From contig NC_043001.1 in assembly GCF_006345805.1 (NCBI RefSeq), positions 27,404,001-27,468,000 on the forward strand: a DNA stretch of 64,000 nucleotides, written 5' to 3'. The notes under the pieces were generated by a model, which was given only the letters and a program-made list of their open reading frames with translations, did not search any database and was not told where the DNA came from. This document shows positions 4,001-64,000 of the stretch, one piece after another. Origin of the DNA: Octopus sinensis (Eukaryota). Both the position numbers and the translations under genes were made by a program. Within the stretch, counting starts at the first letter, position 1. The number at the start of each line of letters is the position of its first letter.

Positions 4001-7000
4001 TTTAATCACACAGCCATATCTGCACCTTAAACCAATCTTGAGTCATTTCATTTGGAAAACCAAACATTCAAAGATCTAACCTAACTGTTTTTTCCCAAAC
4101 TCCTTTTGTACTTCTCGTACAGTACAGTACTTCTCTATGGCTGTGAAACGTGGCCTATGCGGATGGTCGATCAACGAAGGCTGGAAGTCTTCGACAATGA
4201 CTGCCTCCGGTGCATTCTTCGCTGCCGTCGGGTGAATCAAGTTCCCACCGCCAATCTCCGATTTCACCTGTCTCTATGGCCCCTTCCATCTGTCCTTCTG
4301 CAATGGCGCTTGCGGTGGTTTGGCCAAGCATGTAGGCGTCCGGTGGGTGAACTGAGCCGTGATGTCCTTCTCCCAACTCCACTTCCCAACTGGCGGAAAC
4401 GCGCGGGCGGGCAACTGAAGACCTGGGCTACGACGATCAAGGAGGACCTCTCCGTGCTCACGGGTCCGCAGGTGGTCGGCCTGCGTCGATGGAACCGTGA
4501 CTGGCTTGCTATCTCCAGTGAACTGGCACAGGACCGTCGTGCGTGGGCTGCCATGGTTCGAGATGCCTCGAGGGTGGTAGAAGAAGCCGACTCAACCCGC
4601 CCAGGGTGAATGTCGCCACAAGTACAAGTAGTAAACTCCTTTTGTTCTATATTGATCAGTGAAGCAGCAAAGACATAACTGATACATGCCAGCTAGCAAG
4701 TGCAGAATCCACAATACTTCTGTACAAATCCTGCAGAAATTAGCTGAGATTTTACCTGTAGATTGATGAAATTTGAACTAAATAAGCTAAAATGGAAAAA
4801 GCAACTTAAGTACAGGATTTCAGATTGAATGATTTCAGTTTCTATGTTGTATCTACAATAGAACTAAGAAAAGACACTCTAAAAGCAAACCATGTTTCCT
4901 CATCTCAGAGACTGGGCATCTTGCTAGAAAGCACCACTAATCCCATACGACCTATGAATGAGACAAGCAATTTATAGAATATTTACAACAGACACAGGAG
5001 TGGCTGTGTGGTAAGTAGCTTGCTTACCAACTACATGGTTCCAGGTTCATTCCCACTGCATGACACCTTGGGCAAGTGTCTTCTACTACAGCCTTGGGTC
5101 GACCAAAGCCTTGTGAGTGGATTTGGTAGATGGAAACTGAAAGAAGCCTGTCATATATATGTATATATATGTGTGTGTGTATATGTTTGTCCCCCCCAAC
5201 ATCGCTTGACAACCGATGGTGGTGTGTTTACGTCTCCGTAACTTAGCAGTTCGGCAAAAGAGACCGACAGAATAAGTACTAGGCTTACAAAGAATAAGTC
5301 CTGGGGTCGATTCGCTCGACTAAAGGCGGTGCTCCAGCATGGCTGCAGTCAAATGACTGAAACAAGTAAAAGAGAGTTAAAGAGAGTAACCTGGACAGAA
5401 AATGTGGAAAGGACAATAAAAAAATGTACAAATTGATTTACAAACCTTTAAAGGAGAATTAGGTTGAATATCCTCAGTTTTAACTTTCCTCTCTGTCTTT
5501 TGTGCTGCATCATACTTAACTGCACTATACCTGCAGACAATACAAAAACATATAACAACTTGTCAATAAAGCTTTCTTATCTACCTCTGCTATTACCAAC
5601 CACACTATTCCCATCTATTTACTTCTGAGCCACCACAGTCGGAGTCAGCATGTATTCAAGAACATTAATCACTGACACAGGTCAGGGGATTGCATTTCAC
5701 TTGTATTTTATTTTTAACTTGGTTTCTCTGGCTGAATGCTCTTCTCAATGCCAACCACTTTCCAGAATACAAGAGGTGATTTTTCTCTCATGGCACCAGT
5801 GCTACAGACATGCCAAGACCCCAACAAGTTTAAAGGGATCTCTCACCTTTACAGTTTATAGTGTGTAGTGGGTATATTTTTCTTGGTATCAGCAATAGAG
5901 AAGCAGCCATGTCTAAAGGAACTTCACAACTCTATGCCTCTAATCCCTTACAACCTCTTTACAAAGTCAGAAGCATGAATAATAGCAATAAGGGGGATAA
6001 ATAATAGGAGGAGGAGTGATAGGGTTATATACCATAAATCCTCAAGTATGATCCGCATTTTTTCCCCAAAATTTAAAGGTCAAAATCCCTAGTGCGTACT
6101 ATAAACGAGGTTAAAAATGAAAATTATTTTCTAAGCAATGTCCGAGTCTCTATTTGCTGTGCAGCAATGTTTATTCAGCTGCATTTTGGGATGTCAGGTG
6201 CGAAAATACCTTAAGCTAAGCCTGAAAGCAATGAAGTCATAAAAGAATCATCCATAACTTGCAGTAAGCAACAGTTATTAAATTAAAAGTATTCAGAACA
6301 CAGAATAACATGTAACAAAAACAATTTGCAAACATATTTACATTCCCATATAACAGTTAAGAACATCACCATTATAGTATTACGCATGCACGGAAGTGTT
6401 TGTTCGACTAGGTGCTGCTAGCTTAATTACGCACGACTCAAGTTAGAGAAGGGGTGCGTATTATACACAAGGTTTAGGTTTTTCAGAGGTACAACCCCCT
6501 AAAAATCACCTGCGTATTATACTCAAGGATTTACAGTACATATCTTCAAGCAATGACAGAAGGCAAAGTGACCTAGTAGATAGAGCAATGACTTAGACCC
6601 AGGATGTTAGAAAGAAAAAGGAGCGAAATCATGATGGCGGACGGAGTGATGACAGATAGTGCAGGAGGAGAATGTGAAATTAAAATGTAATTTACACAAA
6701 TGATCTCCTGTAGTTTCCTATACATAGACTTTTGAGATGAGCAGAAATGTCAAGTGATATGGGTTTATAAAAAGTAGATAGGCCCTGTACCACGCTGGGG
6801 CATCACTTTGAAGAATTTTTAGTCAAATGAATCAACCACAGTAGTTAATTTTTTTGTTTTTAAGCCTGATGCTTATTCCATCCATCTCTTTTGCTGAACT
6901 GTTATGTTACAGGGATGTAAACACACCAACACTGGCTGTCAAGTGATAGTAGGGGACAAACACACACACGCACACACATATCTATGAACGGTTTCTTTCA

Positions 7001-13500: not shown

Positions 13501-15574
13501 GACATCTCAAAGAACTTGGATTCAAGTTAGTCACTTTGCTATTTGCATATTAGTGTTTCTCTCACTTCTCCACAAGATTGTAAGGGTGGATAGCTAACTG
13601 TAATACATTTCAATTTACATAACAATACAAAAACAGATTATTTGAAATTTCACTTTGACAAAATAGTACTTACTGTTTAGCTAGGTTCACATGTACTTGC
13701 AAGGTAATGCTTAACCAACTGTAGGTCACCTGAGATCAGAAGGAAAATAAAGAAAGTCAATAATCAATTTTCAAGATAAATTACCATAAAGAACCATAAC
13801 TCTTGTCAATACACTGACATCTCTTGAAGCATATTCAATTATGAAAGGTGACTACCATAATACTTAATTTTGAAGTTTAACACAGATCTCATTATGCAAA
13901 CAAACAGCTGCATAATCAAATAATTGTATTCTCGGAGAACTACATTGCATCGAAACAACTGTAGTGATTAAAAAATAACTGTCCAACCATACTCCTTGTT
14001 GACTCCAATTTCTTCAATTTTATATTCACACATAACAAATGCCCAAACTTAAAATTGGAAGTATATAATACTACCGGATACTACTGGGCAATTCTGAAGG
14101 TAGACAAGCTTTATAGTGTACTCTACCATGTTCCTAACAGAATACTCCATAACTATATATATAAGCAAAGTGAAATCATAGCCATGGCCAATGCTGGTGG
14201 CATGTAAAAAGCACCTGTTACGGTTTTGGAATGGTAGGTATTCCATATAACCCATGCCAGCATGGAAAACATTAATCAGAAGGGTTAAAGCACCATCCGA
14301 TTGTGGCCGTTGCCAGCCTCGTCTGGCCCCCGTGCCGGTGGCACATAAAAAGCACCATCCGATCGTGGCCGTTTGCCAGCCTCGTCTAGCACCTGTGCAG
14401 GTGGCACATAAAAAGCACCCGCTACACTCCCAGAGTGGTTGGCGTTAGGAAGGGCATCCAGCTGTAGAAACACTGCCAGATCAGACTGGGCCTGGCGCAG
14501 CCTCCTGGCTTCCTAGACCCCAGTTGAACCGTCCAACCCATGCTAGCATGGAAAACGGATGTTAAACGATGATGATGATGTTACTTTGTACTTTTGTAGA
14601 GTAAAAACTTATTCTTTAACAAGAACAGTATTGAAAGTGACTTCAAAGTTTCAGCCAGCTTAGTCATTAACAGACTGTGATACATTATGGTTAATCTTGG
14701 TTATACTTAGTCTCTGTTGAGACAATGTTCTTCGTGGGTTAGTGGAGTTCAGTTGAATGGTTGGTTGTAGGGTAGGTTGTGATGGAGAGGTGTAATGAAT
14801 ATATTTTTATTGATTAAATTTGGGGTTATGTTCATCATCATCATCATCATCGTTTAACATCCGTTTTCCATGCTAGCATGGGTTGGACGGTTCAACCAGT
14901 CTGATCTGGCAGTGTTTCTACAGCTGGATGCCCTTCCTAATGCCAACCACTCCGTGAGTGTAGTGGGTGCTTTTTATGTGCCACCTGCACAGATGCCAGA
15001 CAAGGCTGGCAAACGGCCATGATCGGATGGTGCTTTTTACGTGCCACCGGCACAGGGGCCAGACGAGGCGGCGCTGGCAACGGCCACGTTCGGATGGTTC
15101 TCTTACGTGCCACCGGCACTGGTGTTCAGAATTTATTCATGAATGTAGAACTTTGTAAACAGGTGTGTATATTTAGGTGCGTTGGCTTCAGGCAATGAGA
15201 TCGTTTTTTAGTGATTCACAAAAAAAAAAAAAATGTAGATAGCTAAAAGGAGTTTTTTAGTCAGTGGATGTGCCACTAGTTTTAGTTATTTTTGGTTTAT
15301 AGGATTTAATTCCTTAGTTTGACAATGTGAAGCTCAAAGTTTAGTCCATCATTTAAAAAACTTAGAAACTGGGTGTGTCAGATTTTTGTAATGGAATTTT
15401 TAATGGTTCACAAAAAGAATGTAAGTAAGTAGTGTGTTTTAGCTGATCAGTAAGTTACTTCATTTGCTCTTCATGTCATTTAGGGGTCTCTTGTTTGTAT
15501 TTGGAGTTAGGAGACTATTAGTGGAGTGTGTCACGTTGTTATATGTATGGAAATGTGTTTATCTCGTGTTTTAC

Positions 15575-18266: not shown

Positions 18267-21200
18267 GTTAGTTTATATTGAACAACAAACCACTTGATAT
18301 TAACCACATTTGATCGATCTGAATTTAGGCATAAATTTTGAGATATGATTCAATTACCAGCGTTTTAAACAAGTCTCCATTATATCAATTTTGTAAATTT
18401 TTAACATGATCAGATAACAACTATTAAGGCTTTGAACCATTCCGTCTCTAAACATCTCCAGTAATATACTGTCTAAGTTAACATTTTCACAGGTAACCGT
18501 TTTCGAAACTGAGTTTCGTTTCTGTATTTGCTGATATTGTTTTTTATGTTAACATCTGTACTGTTTTATCGAAAAGTTCTAGTATCGAGACTGCAAGTCG
18601 AATTTGCAGCAGGCTGTAATTACTCATTATTAGACAGTTTACATAATTACATACAATCCAAATGTGACTATAAAGGCGTTTGTGTGCGCAATCATTTTAT
18701 ATTAGTAAGACCTGTCTTTGATTATAACGTACCACTACCACTTTGTCAAGTATCGCTAAAAACAAGCTTGTTATTGCAAGTGTCATCGATTTTATAGTCA
18801 AGCTGTATTCTTGCAATCTCAAAGATAAGAGGCTGGAAAAAGTACAGATTTGTCAATTTTTAGTATTTGTGTATCTTCATTATCACAGCTCTACAATTCG
18901 TTGAGGTAACTCAGATCTTTGCAAAGGTTTGTATATCTGGAGACTAGCTTCAGAATATTGCTTCGCAAGCGTGTTGTATTAACCAGTCTAGAGGGTAACA
19001 TACTTTTATGTATACATATCATTGACAACTGCTCTCCTGCCAAATACTCGACTAAATATGAAAATATTACTGTGGTATTGTTTCACTTTAAACGAATGAA
19101 CCCACTAAAAGTCTCAAGCTTGACTCTTTACGGATTATTTAATAAAATGAAGTGACTACAAAGATATAGAAATTCTTTAAATTCCTATTATATTGGTTTA
19201 TTGAAACGACGAAATGTGCTTAGTTTCTGTATATAGGCAGCTACCATATATATCATTATCATTTAACGTCCGCTTTCCATGCTGGCATAGGTTGGACGGT
19301 TTGACTGAAAACTGGTAAGCTGGAGAGCTGCACTAGGTTCCAAAATGATTTGGCAGGATACCCTTCCTGGCGCCAACCACTCCGAGAGTGTAGTGAGTTT
19401 TTTTTTTTCTTCGTGCAACCGGTATGGGTGCCATTGACTTGACACCAGCATCAGCTACGACTACAGTCTCACTTGACTTGACAGGTCTATACAAGCACGG
19501 TATATTGCCAAATGTCTTGGTCACCTGTCACTACCCCTATGAGGCCCAAAATTCGAACGGTGCTTTTTATGTGGCATCGGCATGGTTGCCAATTAGATTG
19601 CACTGGCATCAGCCATGAATATGATCTCACTCATTTCGACAGGTCTTCACAAGCACAACATATCGCCCAATGATTGGAGGGTGCTTTTAACAGTCAGCTA
19701 CGCGACATTGGCATCAGCCATGACTACAATCTCGCTTGGCTTGAAGGACCTTCTCAAGTACGGCATATTGTCAAAGGTTTTAGTCACTTGTCATTGCCTC
19801 TGTGAAGCCCAGCGTTTAAAGATCATGCTTCACATCTTGTCCCGTGTCATTTTGGGTCTACCTCTTCCACAGGTCCCCTCCACCGTTAGAGTGTGACACT
19901 TCTTCACACAGCTGTCTTCATTCATATGCATCACATGACCATACCAGCGCAGTTGTCTCTCTTGCACACCACATCTAATGCTTCTTATGCCCAACTTTTC
20001 TCCCAGGACACTTTCACTTTGTTGTGCATGCACACTGATATTACACATTCAGCAAAGCATACTAGGTTCATATATATATATTTAGTAATAATAACAATAA
20101 TCCTTAGATAGAATTTATGAATATTTTAATGCAGTGCTACACGCATTTCCACAAATCACATGTCTCATAAGATCACAGTCTGTGTTAATGTTATACAACC
20201 TTTAGAAATGAATCATGAAGATGATCTACCCAATGCCCACAGATATCACTGACTACACTATAATCACCCCAAGAATACAGACTGTGATCTTAAGAGATAT
20301 GTGATTTGTGCAAACGCATGTATCAATGCATTAAGATATTTATAAATTCCTTCCAAGGATTATTGTTATTATTATTAATTTATCCTACATTGTATTGGTA
20401 CTGCTTGGTGCAACCCCAAAAAATTGGTTCATCAGTCAGCATCATTAGACTGTGGCTGGCATAATGGAATAGGAGCTTTATTTGCATATTCAAAATGTTT
20501 CCCCTAAACAAATTTCGAAATCAAATTCATTGACTAGCTTCCATGCTGGTCACATGTAAAAAGCACCATCCAAGCGTGATCATTACCAGCGTCACCTTAC
20601 TGGCAGTTGTGCGGTGGCATGTGAAAAAGCATTCGAGCAAGGTCGTTGCCAGTGCCGCTGGACTGGCTCCTGTGCAAGTGGCATGTAAAAAGCACCATTG
20701 CCAGTACCGCCTGACTGGACCTTGTGCCGGTGGAACATAAAAGCACCCACTACACTCTTGGAGTGGTTGGCGTTAGGAAGGGCATCCAGCTGTAGAGACT
20801 CATCCAGATCAGATTGGAGCCTGGTGTAGTCATCTGGTTCGCCAGTCCTCAGTCAAATAGTCCAACCCATGCTAGCATGGAAAGCGGATGTTAAACGATG
20901 ATGATGAGGATATATATATATGGCAAATGAAAGACGGAAGATATAATATACATAACAATCATTTGAAAGTGACTGTGCTTTACCAGTAAGCTACCAGGTG
21001 TAAACCATTTTATTACCCATTATACACACACACATACACATTATTCTTAAACAAGGATATTATTGTCAGTGACTTCGAAGTTTTGGCCAGTTATGCCATT
21101 GTCAGACTTTGATGCCTCGAAGTTAATCTTGGCTTTATATGGCCTATCTTGAGTTAAAATCTTCTTTGGGTGTGTGGAAGATTTTTATTCAATGGAGACT

Positions 21201-24200
21201 ATATAAAGCCAAGATTAACTTCAGTGCATCACAGTGTAACGATGACTTAACTGGCCAAAACTTCAAAGTCACTATTAATAAGAGTAATACAGATTCACAA
21301 GAATCAAGGTACATCAACTTGCAGGACGCCAAAAATAGTTAGGTTCAATAACATAGAGCTCACAGTGAGATAAAGAACATTGAAGACATCAAGGGTTGGG
21401 AGCATATTGCCAGTACCAAATCCAACTTAAGTCATAGATCTGACTCAAGTGGGTCCTTGGTGTGGTGTAGGTATAAAAAGTAAAATTTATGACAGCTGTT
21501 TTGGTAAAATTTTATTCATTTAATAGTTATAGAAGATTACATCAAAATATATAATTCATCATCATCAGGTAAAATTTTTAACATCAACCTGGACATAGCC
21601 AATATTCATTCAACAACATTAAATAAATAAAATTGTATCAAATAAAATGGCTTATTAGCTTACCTAATTAAAAAGTGGCAGGGAGACAACTACAATAAAT
21701 AAAAATGGCTTTTAAAATTTACAACCGCTGTTTTGATACAATTTTATTTATTGTGGTTGTCTCCCTGCCATTTTTTAATTAGGTAAGCTAATAATTCTCC
21801 TCATTACATCTAGGGGGATTCACATGGGTTCATCACAACCAGCACAAATCAATAAATGGCATCCATAAAAACTAATGTTTTTTTTACAATTTAAGCCAGT
21901 TCCTGTGACTCTTTTTAAAAAGAAGTTTAGGAAGTCTTTAGAAGAATTCATCAAAATCTAACTATAATAACAAAAGATGAAAAAACAAAAAACATGGAAA
22001 ATGGCCGATAATTGAAAGTGAAAAAAAAGTGGAATCTAAAAACAAATTTCTTTTTCTTTTTACTAAATGTAAAAGCATACATGTGCAACATTCATCTGCT
22101 TAGAAGATTCCAAATTCCATTTCAAGAAAGGTTCTATTTTTGAAAATCAAAAATAACTTACTACTAAGGCAATTTAATTGCAGAGAGCTAACCTGAACTG
22201 GTACCTTATGGAAGAATAACACTAAACCATCAGCAAATTAAGGAACCATACACAAGAAAAAATTCTCTGAATCAACATATAGATATTTGTGGGTCACAAA
22301 TTTTGGTGAATTTCTTTTTCTTTTTATTTTTTCTCAATGTAGCAGTTCAGTTATAGAAAAACAAATAGACAAAGAAATGCAGTTTATAAACAGATTAGCC
22401 AAAATTAAATGCATTGTGTTTTAATAGACATAACTTTATTACATCCCTTTATTGACTTAATTATATCCCTTGAAGTAACTTGATGTCTTGTGTTATTAAA
22501 GCGTTTACATTCAGAACTACTCTTCTATTATTGTTAGGGATTCAGCAATGACTATAATTGTTTTTATTTTAATATATACTACTTTTAAAATTATGTAACA
22601 ACATTTAATGAAATTCAATAAAAACACTTAGTGACTTTGAAAATATTCAACTTGGGTTGAACTGGAAGAAAAAGATTTATCACTATTTTCTATATTCATT
22701 GTATTTTGAAATATTTTGATACTATATTTTGATATTAGATAAAAACTTTAGTGCTTTTGTTACTTTTACTTTTCCTGTGTGTGTTTAAGCTTACAAACAA
22801 TATAAAAAATATAAAAATTTATTATTCCTCAATTAGAATAGTATTGACAGTGACTTTGAAGTTTCAGCCAGCTAAGCTGTCTTTTATACACATGGCCATA
22901 CAAGATCTATACACATGCCCAGATAATGCAGTCTTTTCTTTTGTACACAACATGAGATTCCTATGTTCCGATTCTCTATCATTCATGCACACTACTATCA
23001 TCCAGTGGGAAATGCTCACTTTAGTTTGGTTTTAGTTGCTGGTTTTAGAAATTAAGTTTATTTTCTTAACTGCTACAAGGGTAAAGGTGATGCTCTAGAT
23101 AGAAATAACTGCAGGGGTATCAAACTACTGGATCAGGTGATGAAGATCACGGAGAAGGTCATAGCCCATCTCATCAGGGAGAGAGTCTGCTTAGATGAGA
23201 TGCAGTTTGGTTTTGTGCCGAGTAGAAGCACCACTGATGCCATATTCCTGGTTCGACAACTTCAGGAGAAATACCTAGCTAAAGATAAACTCCTATACTT
23301 AGCTTTTGTGGACTTGGAGAAAGCCTTTGACAAGGTCCCCTGATCCCTTATCTGGTAGGCGATGCAGAAACTGGAGATTGACGAATGGTTAATAAGGGCT
23401 GTATAGACCCTTTACAGAGAGGCCGTTAGTAAGGTTAGGATTGGCAATGAGTATAGTGAAGTATTCCGGGTAGAAGTAGGGGTCCACCAAGGTTCAGCCC
23501 TCAGTCCCCTTTTATTCATCATAGTCCTCCAGGAAATAACAGAGGAGTGGTTGGCGTTAGGAAGGGCATCAAGCTGTAGAAACACTGCCAGATCAGACTA
23601 GAGCCTGGTGCAGCCACCAGACTTCCCAGACCCCGGTCGAACCGTCCAACCCATGCTAGCATGGAAAACGGACGTTAAACGATGATGATGATGACGTACT
23701 ATTTAGTTTTCTTGGTGTATGGTTCAGTAAAAGAAAGTAGTAGCTTTATGAGATCCTTTAAAAATTTGGCACCTCAGACATGTGCTCTACCTATCTCCAG
23801 CCTAGTTCTTCACTGATTATGTATAATCTTTAAAATGTCTTAGTTCACTACATTAATGTTAACACCAACCAATGCAACTATTTGTAATATTTACTGATGG
23901 TCAGCTGTGATTTTTAATTCTACACTAAGATACTTGACGCATTTATCATTGGTTTCTTACTTGCTGATATTAATCTCTCATATATATAAGTGAGGAAAAT
24001 AAAGTTATGTAACATTTGTGCCTTTTTCAAGAACATTAATAACCAGAATTTATAAATGTTTCACTTATTTTGCTCATCAGATCTTCATCTCTAGCCATCA
24101 CAATTCAATAGTATTTTCAATTTGTCTATGAAATTTCACATTTGTTTCAGTACATTTTGCTTCTCTAACTTCTGGTCATCCCAAATCTTCATATATTTTA

Positions 24201-30200: not shown

Positions 30201-33200
30201 CACGTTGCCAACTGTATTTGTTACCGAGTGTGTTCTTGTATATATGGAGACTAACCATTCAAATAATTTGATCAAATGGATTGCTGACAACTTCCAAACT
30301 GCCTTTTTCATTAACTATGAACAGGTAAAACATTTGGGTGAAATCCCTCTTTAATTAATATTATCAAATTAAAAAAGAATCAGATTTCAAACACTAATTT
30401 GTTGTTAATATTTCATCTTCTCCAATAATTAATGCATTATGTACCTGACTCAATGATTTTGTGATGCATTTAGTCTTTGTTCTAAAAATTTATAGCCACC
30501 ATGTAGCTTAATTATATGATATAATATAAGTTTATTTTCTCTCTTACATGTTATTTACTAAATCTTACCAGTAGCCACAACTGATTTAGCTATAATTTTG
30601 TATGTACATCAGTAGTAACACACTAAATATAGTGAGCTAAATCAATAGCTTAACAATTAATTCTGGTCAATCCCAAAAGTTGAAATAATTTAAAATGGAA
30701 TGCATTCAAGAGTGATTTTGATCTTTAATGTAATACTTAGCTATTTTTTCTCAAAACACTTCCATAATTCTATATGATGACCTTTAACCAGAGATTTGTC
30801 TGGTAATTAATTCAATTAGAGGCGCAGTTTTTTGAGTCAAGAAAGTTTAGTTTGGCAGCTAAAAAGCTAATGGTTTGTATCCTATCACCAGTACTGTGTT
30901 GTGGCATTGATCTAGGCTCTTTAATTTCATGGCTCAGTCCATCTAGCTGTAAACAGGTACCACAAGAATGTACAGTGTAGTATATAATTATTAAGGTTTT
31001 TGATAGATTATGAATGATTTCAAATCTTAGGATTCTAGGAATGTTGACTTTTTTCTTCACCCTTTCAGGGTCAATGAAATATGTACCAGTCAAGTACTGG
31101 GGGCAATATAATTGACTGACCCCTCCCCCAAAATTTCAAGCCTTGTGCCTATAGTTGAAAGAATTACAGTGCATACTCATGTCTCTGGAGACAGTAACCA
31201 GTGATTCATAATTTAATATCTATGAAAACAATTACATAATTTAGAATTTCTAGAAACATTTCATTAATCTAGCTGCCAGTGTTGATTAAAATGAATTAAT
31301 CTCAGAGTGATATAATTCAGTAATATACAATGTAGAATGTACTTGTATTTTTCATTCTGCTTTTAGGTTCATATGAATGATAAATTTGGTCAGATTATGA
31401 TCTGTAATCTGAAAGCTCGTCAATGTGATTTGCCTGGTGTAAGTGCTTGTACAGATTTCCAGTCCCAAACTCAAAGGTAACTTTTCAACTTTTTTATTGT
31501 TTTATCAGAAGTTTTCCACAGAAGGCATTAACCTAGAACTGTTGAAGTTGACCATCAACCACAGTGAACTAACTACTCCAGGAAGGCCTGCAAAATTCAT
31601 AGAATGATTAAGTCGATTACATCAACCCCAGTGCATAGCTGGTACTTAATTTACCAACGCCGAAAGGATGAAAGGCAAAGTCGACCTCGACAGAATTTGA
31701 ATTCAGAACGTAACGGCAGATGAAATACCGCTAAGTATTTTGCCCGGCGTGCTAACGTTTCTGCCAGCTCGCCGCCTTAATCTTATTCTTCAAATCATGG
31801 TTGTTGTACTCCAGCTTCATTTAAACTAACCCACTGCAATAACTTTGCTGTTCTTAGTCACTCATACACTGCCTCTTTTTTGCGAAACCACATATTATAT
31901 ATTATTCTCCATTCTTTGGACTATCTCATCTTGTTCCTCTATTATATTTTCACATTGGCCTAACATGCAATTTTCCAGGCTCTATATCAACAAAAAATAA
32001 TCTGTAGGTGCAGGAGTGACTGTGTAGTAAGAAGCTTGCTTCCCAACCACATGGTTCCAGGTTCAGTCCCACTGCATGGCATCTTAGGCAAGTATCTTCT
32101 ACTATAGCCTTGTGCTGACCAAAGCCTTGTGAGTGGACTTGGTAGATGGAAACTGAAAGAAACCTGTTGTATATATATAAAAGCACCAACTGATCGTGGC
32201 CGTTTGCCGGCCTCCTCTGGCCCCTGTACCAGTGGCACATAAAAAGCACCCACTACATTCACGGAGTGGTTGGCATTAGGATGGGCATCCAGCTGTTGTA
32301 ACACTGCCAGATCAGACCAGAGCCTGGTGCAGCCTCCTGGCTTCCCAGACCCAGGTCGAACCGTCCAACCCATGCTAGCATGGAAAACAGACATTAAACG
32401 ATGATGATGATGATGATGATGATATATATGGTGTATTTGTGTGTCTGTGTTTCTCCCCCCACCATCACTTAACAACCAATGTTGTCGTGTTTATATCCCC
32501 ATAACTTAACAGTTTGGCCTAAGAGACTGATAAAATAAGTACTAGGCCTACAAAGAATAAGTTCTGGGGTTGATTTGTTCGACTAAAGGCAGTGCTCCAG
32601 CATGGCCGCAGTCAAATTACTGAAAGAAATAAAAGAATAAAAGAATAGTTTCTCATTTTTCTGATCTTCCTTGTACAAATAAAAACTAGTTCTAAAAAAA
32701 TCTGGTTGAAGTTAGTACAAAAAAATGAGCATTTATAAGTCTATTCTTACTAACCTATACACTTTTCATCTTTTGTACTACAACGGCAATTTTGCTTAAA
32801 TGAATGGATTATTTTTTTGTCCAAAACTGCATTAATTTCAAATGTTGAGTTTAGCACTGTGCGCTAATGAAGCATTCATCAATTATACAATGTCTCACAG
32901 TTCACAGCAGTGTATTGTACTTCTGTTTGGAGCCCTACTTATAATACAACATTTAAAAGTATATATCTCTGCCAATGGCACAGTGCCACTTGTTCAATAA
33001 AAATCAAGAAGCAATTAGCTAGTGGACTGACAATTCAACCACTTTGTATGACAAAGCAAGACATTAAGAATTCATATTAATAAATTATTAATCATTTATT
33101 AACAATGGATATAATTTTTTACATTACATTTTATCTCGTGTTTTCTTTCAGTTTTAATGTTTTTTCAACTCTGTATTGTTGTCCTTCAGTAACAGAAAAC

Positions 33201-37071: not shown

Positions 37072-37330
37072 ATATATATATATACAATTGCAGTGTGGAA
37101 GGTGTTTATAAGCCATTTAAGAAACACAGAAAAATTCGTTAGATTCACTTCAACATTTAAATTTATTTGTCAAAATATTTTCGTCGCTTTGAGGCCGCGA
37201 CCTGTTCACTGACAAAATCCTGTGCTGCATCTCTGTGCAGCATGGAATTTTGTCAGTGAATAGCTCAGTGAACAGATCGTTCCAGCACACAATCTCAGAT
37301 CAGGTCACTTGCTATGCAAGTACATCTCCG

Positions 37331-37370
<40 letters not shown>

Positions 37371-37455
37371 TATATATATACATACATATGTGTGTGTGTA
37401 TGTACATATATATATATTTATGTATATATATCTATATATATATATATATTATATA

Positions 37456-37494
<39 letters not shown>

Positions 37495-37661
37495 TATATA
37501 TATATGTATGTATAATATATATATATATATATATGTATGTATATATATATGTATGTATATAATATGTATGTATATATATATGTATATATTATATGTATGT
37601 ATATATATATGATGTATATATATATGTATGTATATATATATGTATGTATTATATATGTATG

Positions 37662-37701
<40 letters not shown>

Positions 37702-37738
37702 TGTATGTATAATATATGTATATGTATATATATGTATG

Positions 37739-37777
<39 letters not shown>

Positions 37778-38172
37778 CTATATATATATTTATGTATATA
37801 TATATGTATATATATATATGTATATATATATGTATGTATATATATTATGTATATATATGTATGTATATATATATGTATGTATATATATATATGTGTGTGT
37901 GTGTGTATATATATATATACAATTGCAGTGTGGAAGGTGTTTATAAGCCATTTAAGAAACACAGAAAAATTCGTTAGATTCACTTCAACATTTAAATTTA
38001 ATTTGTCAAAATATTTTCGTCGCTTTGAGGCCGCGACCTGTTCACTGACAAAATCCTGTGCTGCATCTCTGTGCAGCATGGAATTTTGTCAGTGAATAGC
38101 TCAGTGAACAGATCGTTCCAGCACACAATCTCAGATCAGGTCACTTGCTATGCAAGTACATCTCCGTAATAT

Positions 38173-38516: not shown

Positions 38517-41500
38517 TGTATATATATATATGTATGTATATATATATGTATATATATATATGTATGTATATATATATGTATATATTATATGTATGTATAT
38601 ATATATGTATATATATAGTATATATATGTATGTATATATATATGTATATATATATGTATGTATATATATATGTATATATATGTATGTATTATATATATGT
38701 ATGTATATATATATAATATATATATGTATGTATATATATATATGTATATATATGTATGTAATATATATGTATATATATGTATGTATATGTATATATATGT
38801 ATATATTATGTATATATATATATGTATATATGTATGTATATATATGTATATATGTATATATATGTATATATGTATATATATATGTATATATGTATATATA
38901 TGTATATATGTATATATATGTATATATGTATATATATGTATATATGTATATATATGTATATATGTATATATATATATATATGTATGTATATGCATATATA
39001 TGTATATGTATATATATATGTATATATGTATATATATATGTGTGTGTGTATGTGTATGTAGGCAATATACTTTTTTCTCAGTCCTTGAACCCCCACTCAA
39101 ACGAAGCTTACAGAAAGCTGAAAGGAAAAGTGCAGACTGCTGTAAGGAAAATTAAACAGGAAAGGTGGAATGATAAAGCAAAAGGGGCACAAGAAGCAGC
39201 TGATAGAAATGACACCAAGGGTTTGTACTCTTATGTTCAGGAGGTATAAGGCCCAAAATCTTCTTCAATAGCTCCAGTGACAACAGCAAATGGTCGTTTT
39301 CTTTTGACTGACACCGCTTTTATTCATAAGCATTGGGTAGAATATTTTTCTGTACTTTTAAATAGACCATCATCCGTTGACATGAGGACAAGAGAAAAAT
39401 TGAACACTTTCCAGTTATAGAAGAGATGGCATTTGAACCAACTCTAAATGACATTTATTTAGCTGTGAATAAGCTGAATAGCAATAAGTCTCCAAGGTCT
39501 GATGGTATCCACGCAGAAGTCTTGAAATACGGGGGTGACAAAATGTTTGAACTCTTAAATGTATTAATTTGTCACTGTTGGAGAACTGAGTTTCAGTGTG
39601 GTTTTCGTTCCTCCAGGGGCACAGCTGATTGTATCTTTACTCTCAGACAGTTACGAGAAAAGTGCACTGAACAGAATCTTGCATTATACCATTGCTTTGT
39701 TGATTTGAGCAAAGCATTCAATATTGTTAATCGAAATGCTCTGTGACTAATTCTAAGGGAAATAGGTTGCCCAGAAAAATTTGTAAACATGATCAGGGCT
39801 TTGCATCAAGATATGAAAGCTAGAGTTAATTTTGGTGGTAGGCTCTCTGAATCTATTGCATGCGTGCTGGAGATTTCCAAGATGGCGTCACTACAAGGCT
39901 GAAGATTCGCCTAGAGGAAGGAAATGTTCATATTGCAAATCAAGAAATAAATATTTATACTGTTGAAGTTAACGGAAAATCTTGACTCTTTCTTCGATTA
40001 ATATTTAATGTAAAGGATGCGAGCTGCACCCATCCAGTGCGGGAACCTCTCATCCTGTTACAAAGCATTTAACTGCATTGCACTGCAGAATTTTATAATG
40101 AGGCTTTAAGCAGGAGTGTCTTCACAAATAAAATTCAGTAGATACCCAGACAGAGCACTTCTAATTCTAATAATACTAGAAAAAAATGGTTTTATGTTAT
40201 AATCTACCATTTATTTTGAATCCTCTGACATTGCCTTTATTGTCCTAAACATTTTCCTTTTAGCCGTAAGTTTCATAAAATTTTTGATAAGTGAATCTCG
40301 AGTTGTACTGATATTTTCACCTCTACTTTAGTTAGAATCAATGTATTCACATAAAATTCAATTCTACAATGCAATTGCCCTACCAGCAATTCCAGTCCTT
40401 CAAAGAGTAAATGTCTTCAAAAGAGTGTTATATACTGTGCTAAGCTCTCAATTATTGGTAGTCTAAGAAGTTTATAAGGCTTTATGCAGAATACTTTCAA
40501 CCCAAGTATAATCAGCATAAATCTTCATTCAAGTATGAAGACAAAAAAAAAAAGAACAACACTATCCAAGTACTTCTGGAATTTCAAGGACAATAGTTTT
40601 CATAATTACAGTATCAACTGGAACTGGTCAGTTATCAAATCTGCATCTGAATATATCAACCACTTTGAATGTTATTCCATCTATAGAAGAAATACAGGAA
40701 TAGAACATCCTGATGCAACAATTACATCTACAAAATTAGAATTGGTCTTTTCGTATCCTCATCAAAAGAAATTTATACTACTAACCTTTGTGCTGCCCAC
40801 TGAATAATGTTGTGTACCCTTGTAAGATTTCACAACACATCTTATGAAACTTCCTTGTTCGTTTATTTTCACTAGTTCTTTTATTTTTTGCCGATGCCAG
40901 CGCCGCCTTGGCTGGCTTCCGTGCCGGTGGCATGTAAAAAGCACCCACTACACTCGCGGAGTGGTTGGCGTTAGGAAGGGCATCCAGCTGTAGAAACACT
41001 GCCAGATCAGACTAGAGCCTGGTGCAGCCCCTGGCTTCCCAGACCCCGGTCGAACCGTCCAACCCGTGCTAGCGCGGAAAACGGACGTTAAACGATGATT
41101 GTATTTCACCCTGTTTTACTTCTTGTCTTTTAATTCACCACCTTTTGATGCTCTCTTTCACTCAGCTTCCAACATATATTATAGATGTGATACACATATT
41201 TTTGCAGATATCTTCTTGAAGGTACATGGCTCAGTTGATAGAGCGTCGAGCTTACAATCGTGAGGTTGTGAGTTCGAATCCCGGACCGGGCTGCATGTTG
41301 TGTTCTTGAGCAAGACACTTTATTTCACGTTGCTCCAGTTCACTCAGCTGTAGAAATGAGTTGCGACGTCACAGGTGCCAAGCTGTATCGGCCGTTGCCT
41401 TTCCCTTGGATAACACTGGTGGCGTGGAGAAGGGAGGCCGGTATGCAAGGGCAACTGCTGGTCTTCCATAAACAACCTTGCCCAGACTTGTGCCTGGGAG

Positions 41501-47847: not shown

Positions 47848-49511
47848 TGAGGTGATATCAAAAAGTTCCCAGACTAGTTTTGTAGCACACTAACAGATGG
47901 CAGCACAGTTGTGTGTGCAGTGAGAGCTAGCACTATGCTGAGTGACATTACTGTGTTCACTTTGCAAGTGGTGAAATTTGTGTTTTTGTGATCACATGTA
48001 TGCTGTAGTCTGTAATTTTGTCATAGACAGGAAGAAAGAGCCAACGTGAAATTTTGCCTTAAATTTGCGAAGTCTGCTACAGAAACATTGAGTATGCTTC
48101 AGCAAGCTTACAGCAACAAGGTATTGGTTGTATGCAATGTTTTGAGTGGCATAAGCACTTCAAAAGAAACAGAACATCCTTGGAAGACATTGAGCAATCT
48201 GGAAGACCTTCCAGAAGCATCACCCCCGAAAACGTGGAGAAAATTCATCAGCTTGTACATGAGGATTGTTGGAGGACAATCAAGGACACTGCTGATTGAC
48301 ATCTGTTGCTAGTGGAGCGCTAAGAGTACCATACGAGTGAGATTGTTGCCAGAGCAACAAGATTGCCTCCGTGCTGATGGCACGTTAAAAACACCATTCG
48401 AGCATGGTCGTTACCTGTGTTGCCTTACTAGCACTTGTGCTGGTGGCACGGGGAAAAAAACATTCGAGCGAGGTCGTTGCCAGTGCCACTGGACTAGCTC
48501 CTGTGCAGGTGGCACATAAAAAGCACCATTTGAGCGTGGCCGTTGCCAGTACTGCCTGACTGGCCCTCATGCTGGTGGCACATAAAAGCACCCACTACAC
48601 TCTCAGAGTGGTTGGCATTAGAAAGGGCATCCAGCTGTAGAAACTCTGCCAGATCAGATTGGAGTCTGGTGCAGTCATCTGGTTCACCAGACCTCAGTCA
48701 AATCGTCCAACCCATGCTAGCATGGAAAGCAGACATTAAACGATGATAATGAAGCAAGCAATCCTAACATCTAAACTGAACATGAGGTGTGTCTCTGCTA
48801 AGTTTGACCCCTCACCTGCTGACCACTAAGCAGAAAGAACATCGCGTTGAAGTCTGTCAAGATCTCCATCAACATGCCGCTGATAACTCATCTTTCATAT
48901 CAAGGATCATCACCAGCGATGAGAACTGAGTCCATGAGTATGACCCTGAGACAGAGCAGCAGTCATTACAGTGGAAGAGCCCTTCATCTCCACAACCAAA
49001 GAAAGCATGACAGAGATGCAGCTCAATTAAGAGCATCCAGGTATTTTGTATTGAGAATTTGTCCCCCAGGGCCAAACCATCAATTGAAAGTTCTGCTGTG
49101 ATTTTTTTGAAGTGTGTGAGGGAGGACATTCAGTGAAAGCAACTAGATTTGTGGAGTGTGAAGAATTGGATTCTTCACAATGGCAATGCAGTGTGTCACT
49201 GAGTTCTCCTCACTTGTGAATTTCTCACTAAAGACAACTTGGTATCCCCCAAATTTAACACCTGCGGACTTCCATCTCTTCCCCAAGATGAAAAGCAGCT
49301 CAAAGGTCACCATTTTAACACTGATCCAGAGCAAATCACAGAAGGTCCTTGGCTTGCTTACAGAAAACAACTTCCAGGTCTGATTCCAGGAATCCTGGGA
49401 CCGGTGTATTGCTGCACAAGGTGATTATTTCAAAGGAGATTATGTTAAAACTTAGGATAAGTTGTTTTTTTTTAAACATAACTAGTCCAGAAACTTTTTG
49501 ATACCACCTTA
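47848..49511 (+). mobile_element. Mariner transposon remnant interrupted by an RTE-tail repeat
   Basis: TA-flanked TIRs tgaggtgatatcaaaaagtt / aactttttgataccacctta; KFCLKFAKSATETLSMLQQAY (HTH), YPPNLTPADFHLFPKMK motif. Confidence 0.85.
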
Positions 49512-57886: not shown

Positions 57887-58558
57887 AGATGTGGCCGATG
57901 CTAGTGCTATCTGACTGGCACTCGTGCTGGTGGCATTCATGAGTGGGTCATTGCCAGTGCTACCTGACTGTCTCTCCGTACTGGTGGCACATAAAAAGCA
58001 CCATCCAAATGTGACCCCCATTCCAGTGGCACATGAAAAGCACCCACTACACTCTCAGAGTGGTTGGCATTAGGAAGGGCATCAAGCTGTAGAAACATTG
58101 CCAGATCAGTTTGAAGTCTGGTGAGGCTTCCTGGCTTTCCAGTCCCCGGTCAAACCATCCAACCCATACCAGTATAGAAAACGGATGTTAAGCGATGTTG
58201 ATGATGATGATGATATATATATATGATGATGATATATATATATATATCCCACTACTGGTAAACTGTAAACCAGTACAACCTGTGTCAGTGGGGTAGAAAG
58301 GGCTCCTTAGCCGTAGTGAAGGCAATCTGTCTAGGGAGATAACCTTACAATAAATCACTCGGTCTGTAGCTTAGAAATACTGGGTTGACATCCAGCGGGA
58401 ACAGCTTTGTTTCATGGAGGAAGAAAGACCTTCTTTAGTGCTTGGTTGTACAATGCTTTCCAATGTGTGTAGTAGCGGCGCGCGCACACATTATTAGCCA
58501 TTTGAAAAGACTATGGAGTCTCGACCACGGTTGAACAATGATGATGATGATATATTTA

Positions 58559-58929: not shown

Positions 58930-59651
58930 GTGCAGACAACTGGCAGGATGGATACTGAGGTCCTTCAAGACAAGAGACTAAGAAACTATGTTAACCCTGT
59001 GGAAAAACTTTGTTCTCAGTTGCCTGGACTACTGCTCCCAGTTATGGTCACCACATAGTACCAAATTAATAGTGGATCTTGAAACAGTCCAATGCCACCA
59101 ACTAAAATGATTGAAACAGCGCAGCAGATGAGCTACAGGGGTAGGCTGAGAAAACTACAGATTTACTCCCTGGAGCAAAAGCGCGAGAGATATGAAATAA
59201 TATACAAATGTAGAATCCTAGAAGAGCTAGTACCTAACTTTGGCATTGAGTGTTATACAAATACCAGAACTAGCCACCATTGTATTGTACCAAAGATACC
59301 ATCCACTCCATCTACATTCAAGACCAGGTACTGCCATAGTCAAGGGTTTAAAGGCCCACAGCTCTTCCATGCTCTACCGCAAAAGTTAAGCAATTTGTGT
59401 AAGGTGGAAGTAGATGTCTTCAAAAAGGAACTAGATAGCCTCCTCTCCACAATACCGGATGAACGAACAGCCCGACATAAGGTACAGACAAGGGCAGCAG
59501 AATCAAACTCCTTTATACACCAAATGTACCAACAGCTGGGACAAAGGCACATACAGGAGTGGTGATATGAAACGCCAGACTGAGGAAGCCCGAAAGACCA
59601 TGGTGGTGCTCCAGCATGACCATGGCCGCATGGCTGAAATGAATAAAAGAG
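58930..59651 (+). mobile_element. CR1-group LINE 3' end
   Basis: LDYCSQLWSP, SYRGRLRKLQIYSLEQKRERY..IY, GPQLFHALP...FKKELDSLLSTIPDE. Confidence 0.85.
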
Positions 59652-59694: not shown

Positions 59695-60425
59695 ATATTG
59701 GAAGGTTTGGAGATGATGTACAGGTATCTGTACATATCTGAATGATATGATATATATATGTAAAAAATGTAATATATAAATAAATATCTGTAAATATGAA
59801 CCATCCGATCTTCTGATTACCTCATTTCTTCTAATATGTATATATATATACATATATATATAAACAATTGCAGCGTGGAAGGTGTTTATAAGCCATTTAA
59901 GAAACACACAAAAACCGTTAGATTCACTTCAACATTTAAATTTAATTTGCCAAAATATTTTCATTGCTTTGAGACCACGACCTGTTCACTGACAAAATTC
60001 TGTGCTGTCAGTGAACAGGTCGCGGTCTGAAAAGCAATGAAAATATTTTGCCAAATTAAATTTATATATATATATATATTGGAAGGTTTGGAGATGATGT
60101 ACAGGTATCTGTACATATCTGAATGATATGATATATATATATATACATACATATATAGATATGTACATATATATATGTACACGCATATATATATACATAC
60201 ATACATATATATATAAACAATTGCAGCGTGGAAGGTGTTTATAAGCCATTTAAGAAACACACAAAAACCGTTAGATTCACTTCAACATTTAAATTTAATT
60301 TGCCAAAATATTTTCATTGCTTTGAGACCACGACCTGTTCACTGACAAAATTCTGTGCTGTCAGTGAACAGGTCGCGGTCTGAAAAGCAATGAAAATATT
60401 TTGCCAAATTAAATTTATATATATA
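59695..60425. repeat. Tandem duplication (~353 bp offset), each unit with an inverted pair of the GUGAACA hammerhead-like repeat
   Basis: 59866-60063 matches 60218-60416. Confidence 0.85.
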
Positions 60426-62992: not shown

Positions 62993-63183
62993 TATATAAT
63001 ATATATATTGGCCTGCTCGCTTAGCCAGCGGGTGGTGTCATTTGAAGGCTAAAACAATGTGAAGCGCATTGTGACCAGCGATGTGTAGCAACATCTGATA
63101 GCCTGGTCGGTCACGGTGATCACGGTGATGGTGATATATATATATATATATAAGCGAGAAAGAAGCAACAAGAATGGATAGGT

Positions 63184-63274
63184 TTTTAGTACGATCGTTC
63201 ATACCAGGGACAGGTTTTATTAAAAGTTGCAAAGATTACAGCATATAAACGAGTCCCGTACTCATCAGCTAAAA
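63184..63274 (-). ncRNA. Hammerhead motif copy with defective GAAA (reads GAAC)
   Basis: Inverted copy of 63871-63961 lacking one A of GAAAC. Confidence 0.6.
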
Positions 63275-63870
63275 TACATGTAAGTTCTCTAGACATCCTA
63301 GTGTTTGAGGCTATACTCATGAAGTAATGTAGATAATTAAACAGATTTCTAAAGTTCATTAAAGTTCTTTAAAGATGATGTACAGTCTTATCACGATTTT
63401 AAAAAAGTTTGATAGCATCACAGAGAAGGTGACCTAATCCATATGAATTTCCATAGATATGATGAGGGATTATATATCACAGAAGACAAATTTATCCATT
63501 GTTAATTACAAACGAGGTGGGTCTCAATTCCTGCTTATTAGCATTACAGAGAGGGTGAATTAATCCTTAGTATATATGCACAGATTCCAATGGTGTAGAT
63601 GTAAATTTCCAGAGAAATGGAGATGAATTTCATATTCCCAGGCGATAAATTTTACAATGGTTGAACACAATGAGGTAGGTATCAATCCTTGTTATATGAT
63701 TAGGTGTTTGCCATATCTCTGTGATGCTATCAAAACTTTTTTAAAATTCTGTGATAAGACTGTACATCATCTTTAAAGAACTTTAATGAACTTTAGAAAT
63801 CTGTTTAATTATCTACATTACTTCATGAGTATAGCCTCAAACACTAGGATGTCTAGAGAACTTACATGTA

Positions 63871-63961
63871 TTTTAGCTGATGAGTACGGGACTCGTTTAT
63901 ATGCTGTAATCTTTGCAACTTTTAATAAAACCTGTCCTTGTATGAAACGATCGTACTAAAA
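63871..63961 (+). ncRNA. Type I hammerhead ribozyme motif (intact core)
   Basis: UUUUAG-CUGAUGA-GUACGGGAC...GUCCUUGUAU-GAAAC-GAUC-GUA-CUAAAA. Confidence 0.8.
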
Positions 63962-64000
63962 ACCTATCCATTCTTGTTGCTTCTTTCTCGCTTATAATCA

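What the first reader, a model, noticed from the sequence alone, without database searches (positions are those of the whole stretch)
37166..38052. Repeat-borne hammerhead ribozyme with a non-canonical GUGAACA core (G3:C8 swap)
Seen: two identical minus-strand copies (37166-37216, 38002-38052) read UUUGUCA-GUGAACA-G-GUCGC-ggccucaaa-GCGAC-GAAAAUAUUU-UGACAAA. That gives a perfect 7 bp stem I, a 5 bp stem II, GAAA and a palindromic AAAAUAUUUU stem III in type-I hammerhead geometry, but with GUGAACA in place of CUGANGA. Established: C3-G8 is a tertiary Watson-Crick pair and the G3:C8 double swap can retain activity. Minimal PLE/retrozyme hammerheads have palindromic stem III and are thought to cleave as dimers. 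Inference: this is a multicopy variant that canonical CUGANGA searches would miss. U at position 17 would avoid a G3-C17 pair, and there is one extra G between A9 and stem II.
Basis: partly seen in the sequence, partly recalled or inferred. Interest (0 to 1): 0.85.

Follow-up and report, generated by a model that had tools for sequence, protein, structure and literature searches.

The report
Flipped-core hammerhead in a Penelope retrotransposon
A hammerhead-shaped RNA motif whose core base pair is flipped (G-C instead of the usual C-G) sits in the end repeat of a Penelope-type jumping gene and occurs thousands of times in this animal genome; related elements carry the normal pair at the same spot, so it is likely a natural self-cutting variant, though cutting is untested.

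Summary
[quoted passage not shown] A parent copy has an open 1,042-codon RT plus GIY-YIG frame ending about 920 nt upstream. The genome gives 6,208 matches with G3:C8, 237 without G3 and 354 with G3 but not C8. Related PLEs carry C3:G8 or U3:A8 hammerheads at the same place, with compensatory changes in stem II. A model built only from those relatives ranks the two window copies first in 64 kb (E about 4e-4).

- The two copies are one insertion, locally duplicated.
- The extra G is normal for PLE hammerheads.
- U17 is shared with C3/U3 relatives, so it is not an adaptation to G3.
- In the window an inverted arm masks stem I.

Cleavage is untested. Insertions derive mostly from uncut RNA, and a small G3/G8 lineage spread. 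I found no natural G3:C8 hammerhead in print, but two key papers were unreadable. The scan noted a similar GUGA core behind a PLE in another genome (e1-7353390). Verdict: new variant of a known kind, interest 0.55.

The parts
37166..37216 (-). Type I minimal hammerhead, copy 1: stem I 37216-37210 with 37172-37166; core GUGAACA 37209-37203 (G3, C8); bulged G 37202; stem II 37201-37197 with 37187-37183; GAA 37182-37180; palindromic stem III 37179-37174; U17 37173
38002..38052 (-). Identical hammerhead, copy 2 (836-nt local duplication of the same insertion); predicted cut 38009/38008
37084..37233 (-). Sense arm of the PLE pseudo-LTR (unit positions 1-150), from the inferred transcription start (extra G, then AGAUG) to the first inferred reverse-transcription start site
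37084..37116 (-). Likely first codons of the PLE ORF (ATG at 37116), cut off by the end of the insertion; similar short peptides follow the hammerhead in related families
   Evidence: pairwise BLASTP found no alignment
37236..37276 (+). Partial inverted arm (antisense to about unit positions 5-37, plus a second short antisense piece); it pairs with the 5' half of the hammerhead in a read-through RNA
37277..37333 (+). Inverted PLE 'tail' (unit positions 153-209)
37919..38069 (-). Sense arm, copy 2
38072..38169 (+). Partial inverted arm and inverted tail, copy 2
59862..60067 (.). Second, decayed insertion of the same family (two arms in inverted orientation; core intact, stem II damaged by CpG-type changes)
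60215..60420 (.). Local 353-nt duplicate of the decayed insertion

Best explanation
The motif is the type I minimal hammerhead of a Penelope-like retrotransposon's pseudo-LTR, with the core C3:G8 pair naturally swapped to G3:C8, and it likely cuts slowly after U17, as a dimer or with help from the element's protein. Shown: the parent element (RT plus C-terminal GIY-YIG, a simple-repeat 3' region, then the pseudo-LTR with the motif); thousands of G3:C8 matches; C3:G8 and U3:A8 hammerheads at the same place in related PLEs; stem covariation between families. Inferred: transcription starts at AGAUG about 60 nt before the cut site. Reverse transcription starts at one of two sites inside the ORF start (unit positions about 150 and 209) and copies capped, uncut RNA back to its 5' end. 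This gives solo pseudo-LTRs, often with an inverted partner and a one-sided tail, in AT-rich or (TA)n targets; the window holds such a remnant. Inferred: the swap arose once on this family's lineage and was tolerated because N17 was already U rather than C. Cleavage is probably not needed for insertion; it would instead trim tandem or read-through transcripts.
For: Parent: L231 has a 1,042-aa open frame ending about 920 nt before the motif; the same link is in L221, L227-L230, L233 and L236; GIY-YIG PF01541 at E 7e-5 and 1e-4 on two family copies. Counts: 6,208 G3:C8 matches, 237 non-G3, 354 G3 with non-C8, reversed-pattern control 0. Relatives: two sister families in this genome (about 50% amino-acid identity) carry U3:A8 (L235, L101) and C3:G8 (L232, L234); metagenome contigs L239 and L241 carry C3:G8 and L237 U3:A8. 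On 7 rows the 3:8 pair is Watson-Crick in 7 of 7 (CG 3, GC 2, UA 2), stem II pairs in 35 of 35 cells with double changes at 4 of 5 pairs, covariation score 0.81 against 0.27 +/- 0.065, 0 of 500 shuffles. A model built from 6 non-G3:C8 sequences ranks the two window copies first and second in 64 kb (29.7 bits, E about 4e-4). Subfamily changes inside the motif fall in loop II or keep pairing (A to G in stem I, 28 of 134, gives U-G). PLE architecture: 3' ends at two places (49 and 72 of 130 pieces), inverted arms, variable target duplications read by eye. An extra G stands before AGATG in 335 of 599 matches, where the parent has C or T. An engineered C3G/G8C double mutant partly restores cleavage in a PLE hammerhead that needs the protein (PMC11167929). 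G3-C8 does worse with C17 than with G17 (PMC3884650, 'data not shown').
Against: No cleavage data. Only 1 of 130 pieces begins at the base after the predicted cut, and about 1 of 100 listed matches by eye; this is also true of the canonical PAc element, so it neither shows nor excludes cleavage. A G3/G8 lineage, predicted inactive, spread: 40 of 100 listed non-C8 matches have G8 (counted by eye), and about 10 near-identical long copies, mostly on contig C20, share it. In the window copies an inverted arm takes the 5' half of the motif (stem I probability 0.0 in the 248-nt unit, 0.66-0.85 from the pseudo-LTR start). The six-base stem III duplex is marginal (-0.2 kcal/mol), while a longer duplex (-6.2) would bury A13, A14 and U17; the best two-strand fold is not the active dimer. 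No head-to-tail tandem with an upstream sense pseudo-LTR was seen in the parent loci fetched. The 7 rows are related and the structure was named by hand, so the shuffle count is not a probability.
Confidence: 0.7

Rival explanations
1. The motif is a true hammerhead descendant but no longer cuts usefully; the fold is kept as a 5'-UTR, promoter or protein-binding structure, or persists only because the family is young.
For: A G3/G8 lineage amplified. Insertions come from uncut RNA. Hammerhead mutants do not affect PAc insertion in vitro. Engineered G3:C8 gives only partial rescue. The stem III duplex is very weak.
Against: Reaching G3:C8 needs two changes that restore a tertiary pair whose known role is catalytic. 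The pair stays Watson-Crick in three different states across related families. Loop II and flanks changed between subfamilies while the other core letters and stem II did not.
Confidence: 0.22
2. The unit is a non-LTR retrozyme that spreads as a circular RNA cut at tandem hammerheads.
For: Type I hammerhead with a palindromic stem III in a short non-coding repeat; two copies 836 nt apart on one strand in the window.
Against: Copies are solo or inverted, not head-to-tail arrays. They begin about 60 nt before the cut site. The same sequence is the pseudo-LTR of a coding PLE. The window pair is a duplication that includes its microsatellite flank.
Confidence: 0.04
3. The unit is a fold-back DNA transposon (MITE) and the hammerhead shape is a chance product of inverted repeats.
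For: Many copies are long palindromes in TA-rich targets. The 63-nt fold is only modestly stable against shuffles, and about equally so on both strands (z -2.36 and -2.25). Rfam finds no hammerhead.
Against: Arms are unequal and variably truncated, the parent codes RT and GIY-YIG, relatives have canonical hammerheads at the same place, 0 of 20,000 shuffles match, and the leave-out model finds it.
Confidence: 0.02

Closest known systems
Minimal type I hammerheads in PLE pseudo-LTRs (Cervera and de la Pena 2014, PMC4209133)
   Same: Place in the pseudo-LTR, a bulged base between positions 9 and 10.1, G10.1-C11.1, short palindromic stem III, many solo copies and pairs on opposite strands; U17 also occurs in their listed examples.
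   Different: They report C3-G8 and U3-A8 cores. Four GUGA-N-C words were not found in the readable supplement text. Here the core is G3:C8.
PAc (Poseidon, green anole) PLE and its protein-assisted hammerhead (Frangieh et al. 2024, PMC11167929)
   Same: Hammerhead near the ORF start, two reverse-transcription start sites that define the tail, AT-rich targets, uncut RNA as template. Their engineered C3G/G8C double mutant has the same core pair and partly cuts.
   Different: Their G3:C8 is a laboratory mutant. Here the tail is about 57-60 nt rather than 30-40, the hammerhead lies wholly before the likely ATG, and the protein has the Cys linker of Neptune/Nematis elements.
Natural hammerhead core variants (Perreault et al. 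2011, PMC3088659)
   Same: Natural covariation at the 3:8 pair.
   Different: The section read reports U3-A8 only.
Nematis-type C-terminal EN+ PLEs (Craig et al. 2021, PMC8557442)
   Same: RT, then a CX2-5CxxC linker, then GIY-YIG; short linker like the two Nematis rows seen in their supplement; inverted 5' copy, one-sided tail.
   Different: Clade placement is by motif and eye only; that paper describes canonical hammerheads for such elements.

Membership tests
Type I minimal hammerhead (PLE type) | Literal CUGANGA core | tested here: not met
   Core is GUGAACA in the window and in 6,208 of 6,799 genome matches
Type I minimal hammerhead (PLE type) | Watson-Crick pair between positions 3 and 8, with U4, G5, A6, A9 kept | tested here: met
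   G3:C8; 7 of 7 rows paired, in three pair types
Type I minimal hammerhead (PLE type) | Stem II closed by G10.1-C11.1, a bulged base after A9, then G12-A13-A14-A15.1 | tested here: met
Type I minimal hammerhead (PLE type) | Short palindromic stem III, U16.1, H17 and a closing stem I | tested here: met
   AAUAUU, U17, 7-bp stem I; stem I is masked in the window's full unit
Type I minimal hammerhead (PLE type) | Stem covariation among homologues | tested here: met
   Between families; leave-out model hit; none expected or seen among decayed copies
Type I minimal hammerhead (PLE type) | Site-specific self-cleavage after N17 | not testable with these tools
   Only contigs were available for RNA runs
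Rfam hammerhead families | Match to an Rfam hammerhead model | tested here: inconclusive
   No match, but the canonical relatives in 5 loci were missed too
Penelope-like element, C-terminal EN+ | ORF with RT followed by GIY-YIG endonuclease | tested here: met
   1,042-aa frame with YVDD; PF01541 on two family pieces but not on the whole L231 protein; RVT_1 only weakly on the sister protein, E 0.002
Penelope-like element, C-terminal EN+ | Pseudo-LTR with hammerhead, inverted 5'-truncated copy, one-sided tail, AT-rich or microsatellite target | tested here: met
Penelope-like element, C-terminal EN+ | Partial tandem with a sense pseudo-LTR upstream of the ORF | tested here: inconclusive
   Not seen in L231, L233 or L236, which look 5'-truncated
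Nematis clade | RT phylogeny with named Nematis elements; short CX2-5CxxC linker | tested here: inconclusive
   Linker C-x3-C-x2-C is present and short, compared by eye with the supplement; no named references in my tree
Non-LTR retrozyme | Head-to-tail tandem units, each with a hammerhead | tested here: not met
   Solo or inverted copies in loci L001-L060
MITE / TIR DNA transposon | Symmetric terminal inverted repeats, fixed-length target duplication, transposase parent | tested here: not met
   Unequal arms, variable duplications read by eye, RT parent

The most novel reading that the evidence does not exclude
This is the first natural G3:C8 hammerhead: an active ribozyme that crossed a two-step gap in the catalytic core, made possible by an older U17, and was then amplified thousands of times. 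One PLE clade uses C-G, U-A and G-C at 3:8, and a whole class of GUGANCA ribozymes is being missed, possibly including some PLEs now described as lacking a hammerhead.
Probability: 0.45. Interest if true: 0.72.

Novelty: new variant of a known kind. Interest (0 to 1): 0.55.

Why it matters
The 3:8 pair positions the general acid of the hammerhead. The papers I could read report only C3:G8 and U3:A8 in nature, with G3:C8 known as a partly active engineered rescue. A natural, high-copy G3:C8 form, with sister families holding the other two pairs at the same place, gives a ready-made series for testing how the core tolerates the swap and whether N17 decides it. It also shows that searches built on CUGANGA or UUGANAA miss real PLE hammerheads. 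A co-occurring G3/G8 lineage and the uncut, capped templates bear on the open question of what PLE hammerheads are for. It is not a new ribozyme class or a new kind of element.

Tried and rejected
Rfam: no hammerhead match in the region, none on 6 loci that include canonical relatives, so uninformative.

First search for the parent by GIY-YIG family returned mostly Neptune-like families that share no sequence with the unit. Looking for a shared extension past the tail found none in 100 listed matches. The parent was found through a shared upstream extension.

No pile-up of 5' ends at the predicted cut.

Sequencing runs: no RNA holder listed on record, contigs only. Four runs from four organism codes cover the unit, but contigs cannot show RNA ends.

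Pairwise BLASTP of two pseudo-LTR peptides gave no alignment; their likeness rests on a five-row alignment with 28-37% identity.

A G3:C8 sequence pattern in viral contigs gave 47 matches; none scored with the hammerhead model at E up to 1. The viral protein scan gave one weak locus. Of 25 metagenome loci, 3 showed a clean hammerhead after the ORF, 2 more scored with the model though G12 is changed, and many end too early.

Tree: one Neptune outgroup row (L093) was taken out of frame, so the root is unreliable. The rerun, a formal count of target duplications and a per-locus count of the extra G were not obtained, because the script machine was lost.

Literature: seven full-text searches were answered; none showed a natural G3:C8 hammerhead. 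Lunse et al. 2017, Przybilski and Hammann 2007 and the paper PMC3334697 were not held, so they could hold a prior report.

Full report
1. Observation. The two 51-nt minus-strand motifs are at 37166-37216 and 38002-38052 and are identical. They read as a type I hammerhead: 7-bp stem I, core GUGAACA, one bulged G, 5-bp stem II closed by G10.1-C11.1, GAA, palindromic AAUAUU, U17. Both stems form in the predicted fold of the motif alone. A descriptor that allows any Watson-Crick 3:8 pair finds only these two places in the window, 0 of 20,000 shuffles of the unit and none in 20 window shuffles; it was written with the motif in view. The two 248-nt units differ by one base and share their microsatellite flanks, so they are one insertion duplicated over 836 nt. 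A decayed second insertion, also duplicated, lies at 59862-60420.

2. The family. The window lies in a 2.72-Gb genome. The best-scoring homologue of the parent protein is from Octopus vulgaris at 57% identity, so the host is probably an octopus (inference). The unit is about 209 nt. One 51-nt version of the motif has 348 exact matches, control 0. A 24-nt pattern across the core gives 6,208 matches with G3 and C8, 237 without G3 and 354 with G3 but not C8; an insertion with two arms counts twice. Of 100 listed non-G3 matches, 1 is C3:G8 and nearly all keep C8 (by eye), so these are decay and not a canonical subfamily.

Copies are solo or carry an inverted, variably truncated arm. Their 3' ends fall at two places, 49 of 130 pieces near position 150 and 72 at the far end. 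Targets are AT-rich or (TA)n. Target duplications of about 8-13 nt were read by eye in about ten loci. This is the PLE pattern of inverted copy plus one-sided tail (PMC8557442, passages), and the tail has been mapped to the stretch between two reverse-transcription start sites (PMC11167929, parts 1-2 of 4).

3. The parent. Five of 100 listed matches shared an upstream extension (four of them held as loci). Following it led through a simple-repeat region to GIY-YIG and RT fragments. L231 (G000:C16) holds an open frame of 1,042 codons with YVDD, a C-x3-C-x2-C linker and the endonuclease, ending about 920 nt before an intact G3:C8 motif. L221, L227-L230, L233 and L236 show the same link; L222 and L223 have the arm with G8, L226 has it beyond the stretch fetched (see L184), and in L224 and L225 no arm fell within the stretch. 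Pfam finds GIY-YIG on two family pieces but not on the whole L231 protein. A likely ATG lies about 92 nt after position 3 of the hammerhead, and the main frame is preceded by an acceptor-like tract, which suggests an intron between them (inference). No sense pseudo-LTR upstream of an ORF was seen. The short linker resembles the Nematis rows in the supplement of PMC8557442; clade membership is not shown.

4. Homology to ordinary hammerheads. This is the decisive evidence. Two sister families in the same genome (about 50% identity in the endonuclease region) carry hammerheads 530-740 nt after their ORF: U3:A8 in L235 and L101, C3:G8 with C9 in L232 and L234. Three of 25 metagenome loci with 42-48% identical proteins carry them 130-170 nt after the matched ORF region: C3:G8 (L239, L241) and U3:A8 with C9 (L237). 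A similar short peptide follows the hammerhead in this family, both sisters and L239 (28-37% identity; no BLASTP hit for one pair).

On seven rows the 3:8 pair is Watson-Crick in all (CG 3, GC 2, UA 2), stem II pairs in 35 of 35 cells with double changes at 4 of 5 pairs, and the covariation score is 0.81 against 0.27 for shuffles and at most 0.26 for slid structures. The 4 unpaired cells come from one row that MAFFT misplaced. The rows are related and two are from this family. A covariance model built from six non-G3:C8 sequences ranks the two window copies first in 64 kb (29.7 bits, E about 4e-4, rough calibration), with the decayed copies next at 19.2 bits. In the protein tree this family groups with the two sisters (94/95), which group with each other (98/97). 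G3:C8 is seen only in this family, so a single origin on its lineage is the simplest reading; the root is unreliable because one outgroup row was out of frame. U17 is present in both sisters, L237 and L239, so it is older than, or independent of, G3.

5. Within the family. In 152 arm pieces from loci L111 onward (of 259 held; the earlier loci were dropped because they were picked on the motif itself), frequent non-CpG alternatives inside the motif are in loop II, at one stem I base (A to G, 28 of 134, giving U-G) and at C8 (G, 13 of 120). The G8 copies are mostly a cluster on contig C20 that my sampling enriched. Genome-wide, G8 makes up 40 of 100 listed non-C8 matches (by eye), roughly 2% of all matches, against 17 of 100 for the mirror change at position 3. 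So a small lineage with a broken pair probably transposed or was duplicated. This counts against cleavage being needed for insertion.

6. How it likely works. An extra G stands before AGATG in 335 of 599 matches, where parent copies have C or T and G is under a fifth of bases in the window. I read this as the copied cap of an RNA starting at AGAUG (inference; cap-derived G is recalled knowledge). Only 1 of 130 pieces starts at the base after the predicted cut. So insertions come from capped, uncut RNA, as for PAc, whose hammerhead needs the protein and whose engineered C3G/G8C mutant partly cuts. From the pseudo-LTR start the stems form (stem I probability 0.66-0.88), but in the window's full unit the inverted arm takes the 5' half (0.0). 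The window copies are therefore probably silent passengers; the parent's RNA is where the ribozyme would act. The six-base stem III duplex is marginal and a longer, inactive duplex competes, which fits slow, dimeric or protein-assisted cutting as described for PLE minimal hammerheads (PMC4209133, parts 1-2 of 4). RNA runs were contigs only and cannot show ends.

7. What is known. PLE hammerheads, the bulged base and palindromic stem III are known. Natural U3-A8 is known (PMC3088659, section 8). G3:C8 appears as an engineered rescue and is said to work better with G17 than C17 (PMC3884650, passages, data not shown). I found no natural G3:C8 in seven full-text searches, in term look-ups in PMC6155905, PMC11014351, PMC10085705, PMC6765202 and PMC13282606 (passages only), or for four GUGA-N-C words in the supplements of PMC4209133 and PMC8557442 (figures that are pictures are not searchable). 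Of the 2026 retrozyme preprint I read part 1 of 5. Lunse et al. 2017 and Przybilski and Hammann 2007 were not held and are the likeliest places for a prior report.

8. Verdict. A real hammerhead homologue in a PLE pseudo-LTR (about 0.93), likely still able to cut slowly (about 0.7 overall). New variant of a known kind; interest 0.55.

Noticed in passing
L232:5071-5110 (+), L234:161-200 (+), L237:2497-2535 (+): Related PLE hammerheads with C instead of A at position 9 (CUGAUGC, UUGAAAC), in two separate lineages; another core variant that standard descriptors would miss.
   Followed up: partly
G000 contig C20, about 2-7 Mb (L202, L206, L209, L212, L216, L222, L223): Cluster of long copies sharing a G3/G8 core that cannot pair; local hopping from one source copy or segmental duplication.
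   Followed up: partly
L233:4721-4821, run X1: Six A-to-G differences at about 5-19% in one guessed-RNA run and mostly under 0.5% in the other three runs; would fit A-to-I editing of double-stranded RNA from inverted arms, but no matched DNA run was available.
   Followed up: no
L092:4663 (+), L104:3255 (-), L093:5021 (+), L235:1642 (-), L226:2823: Hammerheads of other PLE families in this genome: U3:A8 behind Neptune-like elements and canonical C3:G8 forms. The Neptune-like elements have two overlapping long frames (L095).
   Followed up: partly
window 63149-63394 and 63751-63996: 246-nt inverted repeat (98%) next to (TA)n; the right arm holds CTGATGA followed by a possible long-looped stem but no GAAA; may be the end repeat of another PLE family.
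   Followed up: partly
window 14318-14580, 20529-20909, 23479-23693, 32179-32412, 40874-41106, 48357-48754, 57964-58206: Abundant SINE-like family with internal 63-66-nt repeats and a GAT-repeat tail (families D11, D15-D17).
   Followed up: no
window about 4084-4606 (+) and 59082-59562 (+): Open frames that look like C-terminal fragments of LINE reverse transcriptases (likeness recalled, not searched).
   Followed up: no
L248:5592-5634, L251:4014-4056: Hammerhead-like motif behind a more distant PLE with CUGAAGA but AAAA in place of GAAA (G12 lost).
   Followed up: no
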